64,000 nt of DNA from Gammaproteobacteria bacterium (GTDB taxonomy: Bacteria; Pseudomonadota; Gammaproteobacteria; UBA1113), in assembly GCA_020051015.1 (NCBI GenBank), contig JAGVJQ010000038.1, forward strand, positions 6,485 to 70,484, in the 5' to 3' direction. Position numbers: made by a program. Shown in pieces: positions 12,001-15,000 of this stretch (position 1 is the stretch's first letter; the number at the start of each line of letters is the position of its first letter).

Positions 12001-15000
12001 TCGCCGCGATGAATATTTACGAATGGCACATGTCAGCACACCTGATTCTGAATTAGCTATTGGCCTAACCCAAGCACAATTACAATTTAATCAAAAGCAA
12101 CTTGAACATTGTTTAGCGACATTGCGACATATGCAACATTTGGATCCACAAAATAAATACGTGTTAAAAATGTTGAAAAAACTTTATCAGGAATTAAACG
12201 ACTGGAATGGCATATTAGAGCTATTACCTGAATTACGTAAACGGAAAGTAATTTCTGCTGATGCATTGGCAGAGCTTGAAAAACAAGCTTATTATGAACT
12301 CATGTTACAACTTGGCAAAAGTGCAGGTCCACAACAATTAGATAATTTGTGGCAACGCACACCACGCAATTTAAAACGAGATAGTCAACTGTTGCAGTTA
12401 TATACGGCACGATTGATGACATTACAACGCAATGATGAGGCGGAACAAATCATTAAAGATGCTTTAAAAACCGACTGGCATCCTGAGTTAGTCCGCCTAT
12501 ATGGTTTATTACCTGCTTCCCAATCTGCAAAACAGTTAGAAACCGCCGAAGGCTGGCTAAAGCAATATGGTAATAGCGCGATTTTATTGCTGACATTGGG
12601 TCGTTTATGTCTACGTAATCACTTATGGGGACAGGCACGACAATTCTTTGAGTCGGCTTTAGATCTCGAGCCTAATGCTGAGTTATACGCAGAATTTGGC
12701 CGTTTGCTCGAGCATGTTGGTCAAGCACAAGATGCGATGGAAAAATACCGTCAAGGCTTGTTAAGCACAACGGTAACGGTAGCATTTTGATTGTTTTTTG
12801 ACCAATTTTTGGTATAATGTCTGGTTCAATTGAGATATACCATTTGCCAATGAAAATGTGAAATGGGAAGCAGCACAAGTGGGACCCCGGAGCTGTGGGT
12901 ATCCCGCCGTGCTCGCAAGCTCCGCGCGGACGGGAGCCCTCCCTTTGCTCCGCCCACTTGTCGCATTTTCAAGCGGGATGGAATATTTGTAATTTATTTT
13001 GATATAAGGCTGGACGAATGACTTCGACTTCAAGACACACAATTGGTGCCTTTAGCATCGCAATGATGACGGTAACATCAGTTGATAGTATACGGAACTT
13101 ACCTGCCATTGCTCTGTTCGGAACCCCTTTGATTTTCTTTTTTATCATTGGCGCATTATGTTTTTTAGTTCCAAGTGCGATGGTTTCTGCTGAATTAGCC
13201 ACTGGCTGGTCTAAAACGGGTGGTGTTTATATTTGGGTAAAAGAAGCATTTGGCAAAAAGTCTGGCTTATTAGCTATCTGGTTTCAGTGGATTGAAAATG
13301 TGATTTGGTATCCAACCTTATTGTCATTTATTGCTGGCAGCCTTGCTTACATTTTTTCACCTTCATTAGCCGCAAATAAATATTATTTAATGAGCGTTAT
13401 TGTTGCGACTTTCTGGATTGTAAGTCTTCTCAATTTACGAGGAATCAAATTATCTGCCAAATTTAGTTCATTTTGCGGAATGCTCGGTTTGGTTGTTCCC
13501 ATGAGTATGGTCATTTTACTAGGTGTCGTTTGGGTCATGCTTGGTAAACCATTACAAATTCATTTTAATATGGCTGCCATGGCCCCTAATTTCCACGACC
13601 CCAGTATTTTAGTCTCGCTCACCGCCATTGTGCTGTGTTTTTGTGGCATGGAAATTGCAACCGTACACTCACAAAATGTAAGAAATCCTGAACGTGATTA
13701 TCCACGCGCCTTAAAATTTTCCGTCATTTTTATTATGATCACTATGTTATTGGGTGCCTTAGCTATTGCTGTTATTGTCTCTAATAGCCAATTGAGTTTA
13801 GTCTCTGGCATTAGTCAAGCATTACAGATTTATCTCAATGCTTATCATATTGGTTGGTTAACCCCCGTTATCATGGTATTGGTTCTATTTGGTATTTTAG
13901 GCTCATTAAGTAATTGGATTATCGCGCCTAGCCGCGGTTTACAAATTGCATTAAATGACTTGAAAATATTCCCCAGCCTTGTAAAAGAAAATAGATTTCA
14001 TGTCCCAACCCCATTAATTATTTATCAAGCCATTATTGTCACGCTCTTGGCCTGTGTATTTTTACTCATGCCAAGTGTCAATGCCTCTTACTGGATTTTA
14101 ACTGCAATGACAGCTCAATTATATATGGGTATGTATATCCTTATGTTTGCTGCAGCGATTGCATTACGTTATCGTCGCCCTGAAGTCACTCGCGCTTATC
14201 GTATTCCTGGTGGCAAACCTGGTATTTGGATTGTGGCTGGCGCTGGTTTTATTATCAGCATTATTACTATTATTATCGGCTTCTTCCCACCGGATGGCAT
14301 TAATGTGGGGAATGTATGGCGTTATGAAGCCATTATGGCAACAGGATTGTTTTTGATGTCTATTCCGCCATTCATTATCTTGGCGTGGCAAGAACGCAAG
14401 CAAGTAAACGCAACGGAAAGCTCCATACTAGAGAATAATTAATATTGGGGTATCGCCATATTCATTATCCCGAAAATGTGGAATGAGAAACACCGCAAGT
14501 GGGACCCCGGAGCTGCGGGTATCCCGCCGTGCTCGCAAGCTCCGCGCGGACGGGAGCCCTCCCTTCGCTCCGCCCACTTGCTACGATGCGCAATCCAACA
14601 TCATTGCAAATATCAAAGGACTTATAAACATGCTACATAAAATTGTCATCGCTAGCAGTAATGCAGGAAAAATTCGTGAATTTAATGCCATTTTTGCTGA
14701 AAAATCGATTGAGATTATTCCCCAAACAACGTTTAACGTTCCGGACGTTGAAGAAACCGGCTTAACCTTTATTGAAAATGCTATTTTAAAAGCTCGTCAT
14801 TGCTGTACCCATACTGGTCTTCCCTCTATTGCGGATGACTCAGGATTGATTATCGATGCCCTTGATGGTCGACCAGGCATTTATTCGGCTCGTTATGCTG
14901 GTAAAAATAGTTCTAATGAAGAAAAAATTGCTAAAGTGTTAGCTGATATGTCTGAGGTACTTGCCCCCCAACGCACGGCACGATTCATTTCAATTATTGT

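What the first reader, a model, noticed from the sequence alone, without database searches (positions are those of the whole stretch)
12852..14580. Two 109-nt GC-rich structured repeats exactly bracket a single amino-acid permease gene
Copies at 12852-12960 and 14472-14580 are in the same orientation, 1620 bp apart, and each lies about 50 nt upstream of the next start codon (permease and rdgB). The 84-nt core is closed by an 8-bp stem (caagtggg/cccacttg). It can be hand-folded into nested hairpins: cggagct/agctccg, g(u/c)ggg-uau-cccgc and gcgga/uccgc. One of the only two core differences converts a G-U wobble into a G-C pair in the small hairpin (t12896 versus c14516), which is compatible with structural constraint. 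The element is strikingly GC-rich in AT-rich DNA and creates spurious ORF extensions on both strands. There are several possibilities. It could be a shared cis-regulatory leader or RNA-stability element. It could be a REP-like intergenic insulator or terminator. The direct repeats could also be left from insertion of the permease gene as a cassette between hemY and rdgB.
Basis: partly seen in the sequence, partly recalled or inferred. Interest (0 to 1): 0.65.

Follow-up and report, generated by a model that had tools for sequence, protein, structure and literature searches.

The report
Lineage-specific GC-rich repeat flanking a permease
Two near-identical GC-rich hairpin-forming repeats really do bracket an amino-acid permease gene, but five relatives carry the same gene at the same place without them, so they are late, lineage-specific additions to the spacers, most likely a small selfish repeat, and not the scar of a gene cassette or a conserved regulatory leader.

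Summary
There are two direct 109-nt copies (12852-12960 and 14472-14580). Their 85-nt core is 83/85 identical and about 72-77% GC in 38% GC DNA. They are the only two copies in the window and fold well on the + strand.

Five relatives (HemY 68-91% identical) carry the orthologous permease between hemY and rdgB with no trace of the element. Two of them have compact spacers of 63 nt and 22 nt. The repeats therefore arrived after the permease, which excludes cassette or att scars and a conserved leader. Three other lineages (L001, L002, L003) carry different, non-homologous insertions in the same spacers, most of them strongly hairpin-forming.

I found no Rfam match and no similar DNA in the collections I could search: species-representative genomes and metagenomes by strict patterns, plasmids and phages by blastn. 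No similar translated ORF turned up among 5.8 billion proteins.

The structural evidence is weak. Two competing folds are nearly isoenergetic, and the cited G-U to G-C change matters in only one of them.

My best reading is a new, low-copy MITE/REP-like structured intergenic repeat that is co-transcribed with the permease. It may affect mRNA stability as ERIC or Correia elements do. The copy number in the whole genome could not be tested. Interest is modest.

The parts
12852..12960 (+). Repeat copy 1 (109 nt), made of a 24-nt AT-richer 5' part (12852-12875) and an 85-nt GC-rich core (12876-12960). It lies in the permease 5' leader.
   Evidence: the repeat finder family D1, pattern search, covariance model at 118.9 bits.
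14472..14580 (+). Repeat copy 2 (109 nt), made of a 5' part (14472-14495) and a core (14496-14580). It starts 30 nt after the permease stop codon and ends 49 nt before the rdgB start.
   Evidence: 119.2 bits.
12876..12883 (+). 5' arm of the closing stem, CAAGTGGG. It pairs with CCCACTTG at 12953-12960. The same arms in copy 2 are 14496-14503 and 14573-14580. One further flanking pair is A12875-T12961 in copy 1 and G14495-C14581 in copy 2.
   Evidence: The stem is present in every predicted fold. The flanking pair changed on both sides, but T12961 can also pair with A12861.
12851..12861 (+). Left arm of an outer inverted repeat present only around copy 1: TGAAAATGTGA against TCGCATTTTCA (12961-12971). 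Weaker outer arms extend the hairpin to about 12834-12988.
   Evidence: Minimum-energy folds. Copy 2 has no matching right arm ([I2], 57).
12961..12971 (+). Right arm of the outer inverted repeat of copy 1.
12810..12818 (+). Extended -10 promoter-like box TGGTATAAT just after the hemY stop codon. It is conserved in five relatives and places copy 1 inside the permease 5' UTR (inference).
   Evidence: Alignments A1 and A8.
13018..14442 (+). APC-superfamily, GadC-like amino-acid permease or antiporter gene bracketed by the repeats.
   Evidence: NCBIfam Glu/GABA antiporter models, E = 1e-131 but below the equivalog cut-off. Orthologues at the same site in relatives.
11597..12790 (+). hemY, the upstream neighbour and last gene of the hemC-hemD-hemX-hemY cluster.
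   Evidence: TIGR00540, 354 bits.
14630..15223 (+). rdgB (non-canonical purine NTP pyrophosphatase), the downstream neighbour. The ORF can be spuriously extended to 14483 through copy 2.
   Evidence: TIGR00042. N-terminus MLHKIVIAS is conserved in L001 and L002. ORF list.

Best explanation
The element is a new, lineage-specific, non-coding structured intergenic repeat of the MITE/REP/ERIC kind. It is an 85-nt GC-rich core closed by an 8-9-bp inverted repeat, with an AT-richer 5' extension and, in copy 1, outer inverted arms.

It entered, or was copied into, both spacers that flank an already resident permease gene. This happened after the lineage split from its nearest sequenced relatives.

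Both copies lie in the sense orientation inside transcribed spacers. Copy 1 sits between a conserved extended -10 box and the permease ribosome-binding site. Copy 2 sits between the permease stop codon and the rdgB ribosome-binding site. Each should therefore be part of the mRNA and fold into a very stable module of about -45 to -50 kcal/mol at the 5' and 3' ends of the permease cistron.

The most likely consequence is a side-effect of the kind known for ERIC, Correia and REP elements: changed mRNA stability or processing, and partial uncoupling of permease and rdgB expression. I do not think it is a dedicated sensor.

Shown: the repeat, its absence from orthologous sites, and its predicted folding. 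Inferred: transcription, mobility or the copying mechanism, and any effect on the mRNA.
For: 1. The repeat is real and unique in the window.

2. Five relatives have the orthologous permease at the same site without it. Permease identity (90, 88.5, 86, 78, 76%) tracks HemY identity (90, 86, 91, 78, 68%), which indicates vertical inheritance.

3. L020 has spacers of 63 nt and 22 nt, and L018 has a first spacer of 63 nt. The window has 227 nt and 187 nt. The compact state therefore looks ancestral, and the window carries about 164 extra nt in each spacer.

4. L001, L002 and L003 each have a different, non-homologous insert at the same positions. Most are strongly hairpin-forming, with z from -4 to -13; two of the five (both in L001) fold no better than shuffles. 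Examples are a 37-bp perfect GTAG-headed palindrome in L003 and a 135-nt hairpin in L002. These spacers therefore behave as havens or hot spots for palindromic repeats.

5. The genome also carries a GTAG-tagged REPIN-like doublet.

6. Architecture: a closing inverted repeat, plus outer inverted arms around copy 1 that give a hairpin of about 155 nt. All six frames are open, but 5 of 6 substitutions are non-synonymous in the frame with the shared ATG, so it is not coding.

7. It has no T-tract, so it is not an intrinsic terminator.

8. Precedents exist. QMITE1 and QMITE2 are MITEs in the Legionellales member Coxiella (PMC5896051). ERIC and Correia transcripts modulate the stability of neighbouring mRNAs (PMC2229807).
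Against: Only two copies are known, and both flank one gene. If two copies were placed independently in 64 kb, the chance of their lying within 1.6 kb of each other is about 0.05 (my calculation). A dispersed mobile family is therefore not demonstrated.

I found no target-site duplication and no TA termini. No partner transposase was looked for beyond the immediate neighbours.

No related copy turned up in any of these searches:
- 185,579 species-representative genomes
- JGI metagenomes
- viral contigs
- plasmids and phages
- 5.8 billion proteins, using a six-frame translation

The DNA patterns were strict, and the source genome itself seems absent from or masked in these collections.

The core is significantly better conserved than its 5' extension (83/85 against 19/24, p = 0.006), even though the genome is AT-rich. 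That fits selection or gene conversion on the core better than plain neutral decay.

The + strand RNA folds better relative to shuffles than the - strand.
Confidence: 0.55

Rival explanations
1. The element is a selected, functional RNA module, either cis-acting or a small RNA. On this reading the core is a bistable structure, rod against three-way junction. It would act in the permease 5' UTR and in the permease 3' UTR / rdgB leader to control stability, processing or translation of these mRNAs.
For: The core is 97.6% identical while the adjoining 5' part is 79% identical (p = 0.006), and weak similarity fades further out. The + strand folds with z = -3.0 to -4.1, against -1.4 to -1.9 for the - strand. 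The pair flanking the closing stem changed on both sides, A-T to G-C. Two almost isoenergetic, mutually exclusive folds share the GGAGC/GCUCC segments. Both copies are sense to the flanking genes. The same genome contains another repeated structured RNA that is not selfish DNA: a TwoAYGGAY-like RNA with a second copy sharing its core.
Against: The element is absent from the orthologous leaders of five relatives, two of which have no long leader at all. There is no Rfam match even at E = 10. With two nearly identical copies there is no usable covariation. The one both-sides change is ambiguous, because T12961 also pairs with A12861. The T12896C change is informative in only one of the two folds. 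Permease and rdgB have no evident shared physiology.
Confidence: 0.2
2. There was a single insertion, followed by local copying through ectopic gene conversion or recombination to the other side of the permease, with no transposition. The resulting 109-bp direct repeats then make the 1.6-kb permease segment excisable or amplifiable by homologous recombination.
For: The two copies are only 1620 bp apart, in direct orientation, and there are none elsewhere in 64 kb. Identity falls in a gradient from 97.6% in the core to 79% and then about 60% in the flanks, which resembles a conversion tract. The longest perfect stretch is 49 nt (12897-12945). From general knowledge of E. coli, that exceeds the roughly 25-30-bp minimum for RecA-dependent recombination. 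No target-site duplication was found.
Against: No mechanism is evident for copying a 109-nt block into a non-homologous spacer 1.6 kb away. No variant lacking or amplifying the permease was observed. The extra length is about 164 nt in both spacers, which suggests two similar insertions.
Confidence: 0.15
3. The repeats are attL/attR-like or integron-attC-like scars left when the permease inserted as a cassette between hemY and rdgB.
For: Direct repeats exactly bracket one gene. Some relatives (L004, L005, L019) have hemY followed directly by rdgB with no permease.
Against: Five relatives have the orthologous permease at this site without the repeats, and permease divergence tracks the neighbouring genes. 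The repeat contains no GTT or AAC trinucleotide, so it cannot hold the attC core sites RYYYAAC and GTTRRRY (read directly). The spacers of L020 are too short (63 nt and 22 nt) to hold any such site.
Confidence: 0.03
4. The element encodes a small peptide, acting as an upstream ORF for the permease and as an N-terminal extension of RdgB.
For: An ATG sits at the same repeat position in both copies (12863 and 14483) and opens the same frame through the whole core. In copy 1 that frame stops at a TGA overlapping the permease ATG, and in copy 2 it runs in frame into rdgB.
Against: In this frame, 5 of the 6 differences between the copies are non-synonymous. There is no ribosome-binding site before the ATG. 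The six-frame translation found nothing at E <= 10 among 5.8 billion proteins. The ATGA overlap is present in relatives without the element, because the second permease codon is ACN. The RdgB N-terminus MLHK is conserved in relatives. All six frames are open simply because the core is GC-rich.
Confidence: 0.03

Closest known systems
Bacterial MITEs, in particular QMITE1 and QMITE2 of Coxiella burnetii (Legionellales) (PMC5896051)
   Same: It is a short non-coding repeat in the intergenic DNA of a Legionellales-type genome. It has inverted-repeat ends and a very stable predicted hairpin transcript. It overlaps or extends neighbouring ORFs. Filled and empty orthologous sites exist among relatives.
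   Different: It is much shorter (85-155 nt, against about 190 and 400 nt) and has no sequence similarity to them. No 7-9-bp direct target repeats were found. Only two copies have been seen, against 45-78 per Coxiella genome. The closing inverted repeat is only 8-9 bp.
ERIC/IRU and Correia/NEMIS elements (review PMC2229807)
   Same: The size class is similar, about 100-155 nt. The elements lie in transcribed spacers between co-directional genes and are co-transcribed. Their stable stem-loop RNA is known to change the stability or processing of flanking mRNAs in an orientation-dependent way. This is the mechanism I infer here.
   Different: There is no sequence relation. There are no TA termini or TA target duplication. 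The branched, GC-rich core differs from a simple long hairpin. No RNase III or RNase E data exist for this element, and it is not known to be multi-copy.
REP/BIME/REPIN elements (GTAG- or CGTC-tagged palindromes; PMC3733652, PMC3116915)
   Same: It is a GC-rich palindromic extragenic sequence in spacers between co-directional genes. Proposed roles of REP elements include mRNA 3'-end protection and insulation.
   Different: REP units are 20-40 nt with a conserved GTAG or CGTC head and occur in high copy, mobilised by RAYT transposases. This element is 85-109 nt and lacks the tag. The genome's own GTAG-tagged REPIN-like doublet (2217-2239 and 2340-2362) is unrelated to it.
TwoAYGGAY RNA (Rfam RF01731), present in the same window
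   Same: It is a repeated GC-rich structured core sitting at the apex of a long AT-richer stem, with two copies in this window and unknown function.
   Different: There is no sequence or model similarity. The TwoAYGGAY copies show compensating, completely different outer stems, which is real covariation. The permease-flanking element shows none.

Membership tests
MITE (miniature inverted-repeat transposable element) | Terminal inverted repeats | tested here: inconclusive
   Both copies have an 8-9-bp closing inverted repeat, CAAGTGGG/CCCACTTG. Outer arms of 10-11 bp, within an imperfect hairpin of about 29-bp arms, occur only around copy 1. The true ends of the element are undefined.
MITE (miniature inverted-repeat transposable element) | Target-site duplication flanking each copy | tested here: not met
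   No direct repeat or TA dinucleotide is found at any of the candidate boundaries (12851/12852, 12960/12961, 12971/12972, 12834/12988, 14471/14472, 14580/14581), read. The boundaries themselves are uncertain.
MITE (miniature inverted-repeat transposable element) | Multiple dispersed copies in the genome | not testable with these tools
   Only 64 kb of the genome is available. It holds two copies, both at one gene. The source genome was not found in the searchable collections.
MITE (miniature inverted-repeat transposable element) | Filled and empty orthologous sites | tested here: met
   Orthologous spacers in L001, L002, L003, L018 and L020 lack the element. L018 and L020 have compact spacers of 63 nt and 22 nt. 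The spacers are too diverged to give base-exact empty sites.
REP / BIME / REPIN | A 20-40-nt imperfect palindrome with a conserved GTAG or CGTC tag at one end | tested here: not met
   The unit is 85-109 nt and branched. Neither copy has GTAG or CGTC at the head of the core. A CTAC follows copy 2 only.
REP / BIME / REPIN | High copy number and an associated RAYT transposase | not testable with these tools
   The whole genome is not available.
Integron gene cassette / attC | attC core sites R'' (RYYYAAC) and R' (GTTRRRY) at the ends of the imperfect palindrome | tested here: not met
   The 109-nt repeat contains no GTT or AAC trinucleotide (read).
Integron gene cassette / attC | The gene is mobile together with its recombination site, so relatives have either an empty site or the cassette with its site | tested here: not met
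   Five relatives have the orthologous, vertically diverging permease at this site without the repeat.
Riboswitch / conserved cis-regulatory leader | Conservation of the element upstream of orthologous genes across species | tested here: not met
   The element is absent from all five orthologous permease leaders and from all rdgB leaders examined.
Riboswitch / conserved cis-regulatory leader | Covariation supporting one structure, or a match to a curated family | tested here: inconclusive
   There are two copies with 2 core differences. One ambiguous both-sides change lies just outside the closing stem. Two competing folds lie within 0.2-5 kcal/mol of each other. There is no Rfam match at the gathering threshold or at E <= 10.
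Intrinsic (Rho-independent) terminator | A GC-rich stem immediately followed by a U-tract | tested here: not met
   The terminator scan finds none at either copy. Copy 1 is followed by TCGCATTTTC and copy 2 by CTACGATGCG.

The most novel reading that the evidence does not exclude
The 85-nt core could be a previously undescribed structured RNA with two mutually exclusive conformations, rod and three-way junction. It would have been recruited at both ends of a transporter cistron as a selected stability, processing or insulation switch. Alternatively, it could be a new kind of small GC-rich element that specifically colonises promoter-proximal leaders and hairpin apices in AT-rich Legionellales genomes. 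This would fit the observation that at least four lineages acquired different inserts, most of them strongly structured, at exactly the same two spacers.
Probability: 0.12. Interest if true: 0.55.

Novelty: new member of a known kind. Interest (0 to 1): 0.3.

Why it matters
If this reading is right, the finding is mainly a caution for annotation and an evolutionary note.

The element creates false ORFs and a false 49-residue extension of RdgB. It mimics a gene-cassette boundary although it is not one.

It also shows that the two spacers around one transporter gene in this uncultured Legionellales clade have repeatedly and independently been filled by unrelated hairpin-forming inserts, starting from compact spacers of 63 nt and 22 nt.

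Two consequences are testable. The permease mRNA ends carry very stable structures, which may alter mRNA half-life and the coupling of permease to rdgB expression. And 109-bp direct repeats containing a 49-nt perfect stretch could allow loss or amplification of the permease by recombination.

It would become more important only if further copies showed covariation, which would make it a new RNA class.

Tried and rejected
1. Rfam. The whole window at gathering thresholds, the region at E <= 10 and the whole window at E <= 2 gave nothing for the element.

2. tRNA or tmRNA origin. ARAGORN found none.

3. Searches for further copies.
- A degenerate pattern on genome contigs gave 6 hits. All are chance matches with no similarity outside the specified bases.
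- The metagenome pattern gave 4 chance hits in GC-rich contigs.
- Two viral scans gave zero hits and one chance hit.
- blastn against plasmids and phages found nothing.
- A concatenated six-frame translation against 5.8 billion proteins gave nothing at E <= 10.
- A covariance model run over the window and 9 related loci found only the two known copies.
- A literature search for the sequence strings found nothing.

4. An exact look-up of the window's permease, intended to recover the source genome, found no record.

5. Possible homology of the element with other sequences was not better than shuffles. The sequences tested were the GC-rich or hairpin inserts of L001 and L003, the GC-rich end of the L002 contig, the 18508 island and the TwoAYGGAY core. 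An apparent MAFFT alignment with the L003 insert is therefore spurious.

6. Base-exact insertion boundaries and target duplications could not be obtained by aligning spacers with relatives. Only the promoter box and the ribosome-binding region align.

7. Promoter and terminator scans of the element gave no more hits than shuffles.

8. Coding potential was rejected.
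Full report
**1. Observation**

The window (about 38% GC) contains a 109-nt direct repeat at 12852-12960 and 14472-14580. 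The copies are 1620 bp apart and 94% identical. A core 20-mer allowing 3 mismatches occurs only at these two sites, against 0.00 expected by chance. A covariance model built from the two copies finds nothing else in the window or in nine related loci. The two copies are the most GC-rich 60-nt stretches of the window, at 0.75-0.77.

The core closed by CAAGTGGG/CCCACTTG is 85 nt (12876-12960 and 14496-14580). It differs at two positions, 12896 and 12946, both T/C. The 24-nt 5' part differs at five positions. That difference in conservation is significant (Fisher p = 0.006). Weak similarity of about 60% may continue for another 20 nt or so to the left.

The flanking genes are hemC-hemD-hemX-hemY, an APC/GadC-like permease (13018-14442) and rdgB (14630-15223). 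The copies end 57 nt and 49 nt before the two start codons.

**2. Structure**

As RNA, the + strand folds better than dinucleotide shuffles (z = -3.0 to -4.1). The - strand folds less well (z = -1.4 to -1.9). As DNA, the two strands are similar.

Two mutually exclusive folds compete. One is a rod in which GGAGC pairs with the distal GCUCC.
- Copy 1: rod -49.3 kcal/mol, junction -44.4 kcal/mol.
- Copy 2: rod -49.8 kcal/mol, junction -50.0 kcal/mol.

Position 12896, the G-U to G-C change, is paired only in the junction fold, so it does not discriminate between them. One pair just outside the closing stem changed on both sides, A12875-T12961 against G14495-C14581. However, T12961 can also pair with A12861 in an outer stem. 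With two nearly identical copies there is effectively no covariation evidence.

Copy 1 is additionally embedded in outer inverted arms, TGAAAATGTGA/TCGCATTTTCA, with weaker arms out to about 12834-12988. Copy 2 has no matching right arm.

**3. Comparative evidence (decisive)**

HemY homologues place the window in an uncultured Legionellales-like clade. The nearest relative in 5.8 billion proteins is 91% identical. I fetched nine loci.

| Locus | HemY identity | Gene order | hemY-permease spacer | Spacer after the permease |
|---|---|---|---|---|
| window | - | hemY-permease-rdgB | 227 nt | 187 nt |
| L001 | 91% | hemY-permease-HbpS-like-DAO-rdgB | 178 nt | 130 nt |
| L002 | 90% | hemY-permease-rdgB | 211 nt | 87 nt |
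| L018 | 86% | hemY-permease-other genes | 63 nt | 143 nt |
| L003 | 78% | hemY-permease-rdgB | 196 nt | 130 nt |
| L020 | 68% | hemY-permease-rdgB | 63 nt | 22 nt |
| L004, L005, L019 | 76-77% | hemY directly followed by rdgB, no permease | - | - |
| L006 | 72% | hemY followed by unrelated genes (FKBP-type isomerase, MFS transporter, MS channel and others); no permease or rdgB within the fetched 10 kb | - | - |

Permease identity to the window is 86, 90, 88.5, 78 and 76% for L001, L002, L018, L003 and L020. It tracks HemY and RdgB identity, so the permease is vertically inherited at this site. None of these loci contains the element by blastn or by the covariance model.

The repeats are not scars of permease insertion, and they are not a conserved leader. 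Because L018 and the outgroup-like L020 share compact spacers, the compact state is probably ancestral. The window then carries about 164 extra nt in each spacer.

**4. The spacers as havens for structured inserts**

An extended -10 box is conserved directly after the hemY stop codon in all permease-bearing relatives: TGGTATAAT at 12810-12818, consensus TGnTAnAnT. The ribosome-binding region is conserved too.

Between these two landmarks, L001, L002, L003 and the window each carry a different sequence:
- L002 has a 135-nt AT-rich hairpin (z = -6.0).
- L003 has a GC-rich branched structure (z = -5.8).
- L001 has a weakly structured insert.

After the permease:
- L003 has a 37-bp perfect GTAG-headed palindrome (z = -13).
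- L002 has a 14-bp hairpin.
- L001 has a REP-like hairpin.

None of the relatives' inserts tested (L001 and L003) resembles the window element more than shuffled sequence does; the L002 inserts gave no blastn or covariance-model hit. The window also holds a REPIN-like doublet of GTAG-tagged palindromes. This pattern is what one expects of selfish palindromic repeats accumulating in permissive, transcribed spacers.

**5. Distribution elsewhere**

Rfam gave no match at the gathering threshold or at permissive thresholds. No tRNA-like gene was found.

- The pattern scan of 185,579 species-representative genomes gave six hits, all chance.
- The scan of JGI metagenomes gave four hits, all chance.
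- Viral contigs, plasmids and phages gave nothing.
- The concatenated six-frame translation found no similar predicted protein.
- The literature holds no such sequence strings.

Caveats apply. The DNA patterns were strict. The JGI set lacks close relatives of this clade; HemY hits from JGI are 56% identical or less. The source genome itself could not be retrieved, so its genome-wide copy number is unknown.

**6. What it most likely is and does**

I commit to a new small non-coding structured intergenic repeat of the MITE/REP/ERIC kind, with confidence 0.55. It was inserted or copied into both spacers after the split from the nearest relatives.

Given the conserved promoter box upstream of copy 1, and the position of copy 2 between the permease stop codon and the rdgB ribosome-binding site, both copies should be transcribed in sense. 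They should fold as autonomous modules that do not sequester the ribosome-binding sites in the centroid structures.

By analogy with ERIC and Correia elements (PMC2229807) and REP elements, the likely effect is on mRNA stability or processing and on permease/rdgB coupling. It is not an intrinsic terminator, because there is no U-tract. It is not coding: 5 of 6 substitutions are non-synonymous, there is no ribosome-binding site, and there are no protein relatives.

MITEs are documented in Legionellales: Coxiella QMITE1 and QMITE2 (PMC5896051). This element is unrelated to them and fails or cannot be tested on several MITE criteria. No target duplication was found, and the copy number is unknown.

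**7. Rivals**

- A selected RNA module (0.2). It is supported by the conservation contrast between core and flank, the strand asymmetry of folding and the bistable design. It is opposed by the absence from all orthologous leaders.
- Local copying or gene conversion of one insertion, with recombination consequences (0.15). It is supported by the close clustering (p about 0.05) and the identity gradient.
- Cassette or att scars (0.03) and a micro-ORF (0.03). Both are effectively excluded.

**8. Verdict**

This is a real, lineage-specific repeat and a new member of a known kind. The cassette and conserved-leader readings are refuted. The REP-like or MITE-like reading survives but is not proven. 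Interest is modest (0.3). It would rise if the full genome or related strains revealed covarying copies.

Noticed in passing
window 37022-37170 and 48918-49022: Two copies of a TwoAYGGAY-like RNA. The first matches Rfam RF01731 over the full model at 35.8 bits (gathering score 43; E = 0.0003 for the region and 0.06 for the whole window). The two copies share a GC-rich core of about 65 nt with CAUGGAUGG loops. Their long outer stems differ completely in sequence yet are perfectly compensating (z = -15 and -6.7). This looks like genuine covariation, and the stems resemble bidirectional terminator hairpins (AAAAGCC...GGCTTTT).
   Followed up: partly
window 2199-2380: A REPIN-like doublet. Two inverted copies of the GTAG-tagged palindrome GTAGGGGCGTATTGCATACGCCC (2217-2239 on + and 2340-2362 on -) lie within 43-nt inverted arms. 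These are the only two units in the window.
   Followed up: partly
window 18508-18596: The third most GC-rich island of the window (up to 0.67). It is intergenic, between the ORFs 16704-18395 (+) and 18596-19039 (-). On the + strand it folds into three short hairpins (z = -2.6). It has no Rfam match and is unrelated to the permease-flanking element.
   Followed up: partly
window 39340-39436 (- strand): A sub-threshold Rfam hit to RF03531 (n00280, an sRNA embedded in a helicase gene) at 36.6 bits against a gathering score of 65.2, E = 0.03. It lies inside the 722-aa ORF 39020-41188 (-), so it probably reflects coding-sequence conservation.
   Followed up: no
L003 7563-7650; L002 5860-6002 and 7483-7526; L001 7440-7470: Relatives carry unrelated palindromic inserts in the same two spacers. 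L003 has a 37-bp perfect palindrome, GTAGCCCGGATGTAGCGCAGCGCAATTCGGG... (z = -13). L002 has a 135-nt AT-rich hairpin in the permease leader (z = -6) and a 14-bp hairpin after the permease. L001 has a REP-like hairpin, GGTGGATTAGCGCCAAACGCGTAATCCACC.
   Followed up: partly
L001 7555-8980; L004 4186-4189; L005 4117-4120; L019 3972-4047; L020 2858-2922 and 4352-4375: The locus is plastic across the clade. L001 has HbpS-like and D-amino-acid-oxidase genes inserted between the permease and rdgB. L004, L005 and L019 lack the permease, and their hemY abuts rdgB with gaps of 2 nt (L004, L005) and 74 nt (L019). L020 has the most compact version, with spacers of 63 nt and 22 nt, plus a second, 43%-identical permease paralogue nearby (6257-7645, - strand).
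   Followed up: partly
window 12810-12818 (and the aligned positions in L001, L002, L003, L018, L020): A conserved extended -10 promoter-like box (TGnTAnAnT) lies immediately downstream of the hemY stop codon in all permease-bearing relatives. This implies that the permease has its own promoter.
   Followed up: partly
L002 10093-10153: The L002 contig ends in a GC-rich hairpin-forming sequence (GCTCGCGATGGGGAAGTCCAGAAGGGGAGCGAGCAAAGGGCTTTGCCCGTGCGAG). An assembly break at this point suggests a repeat. Its similarity to the window element is not significant (z = 1.8).
   Followed up: partly
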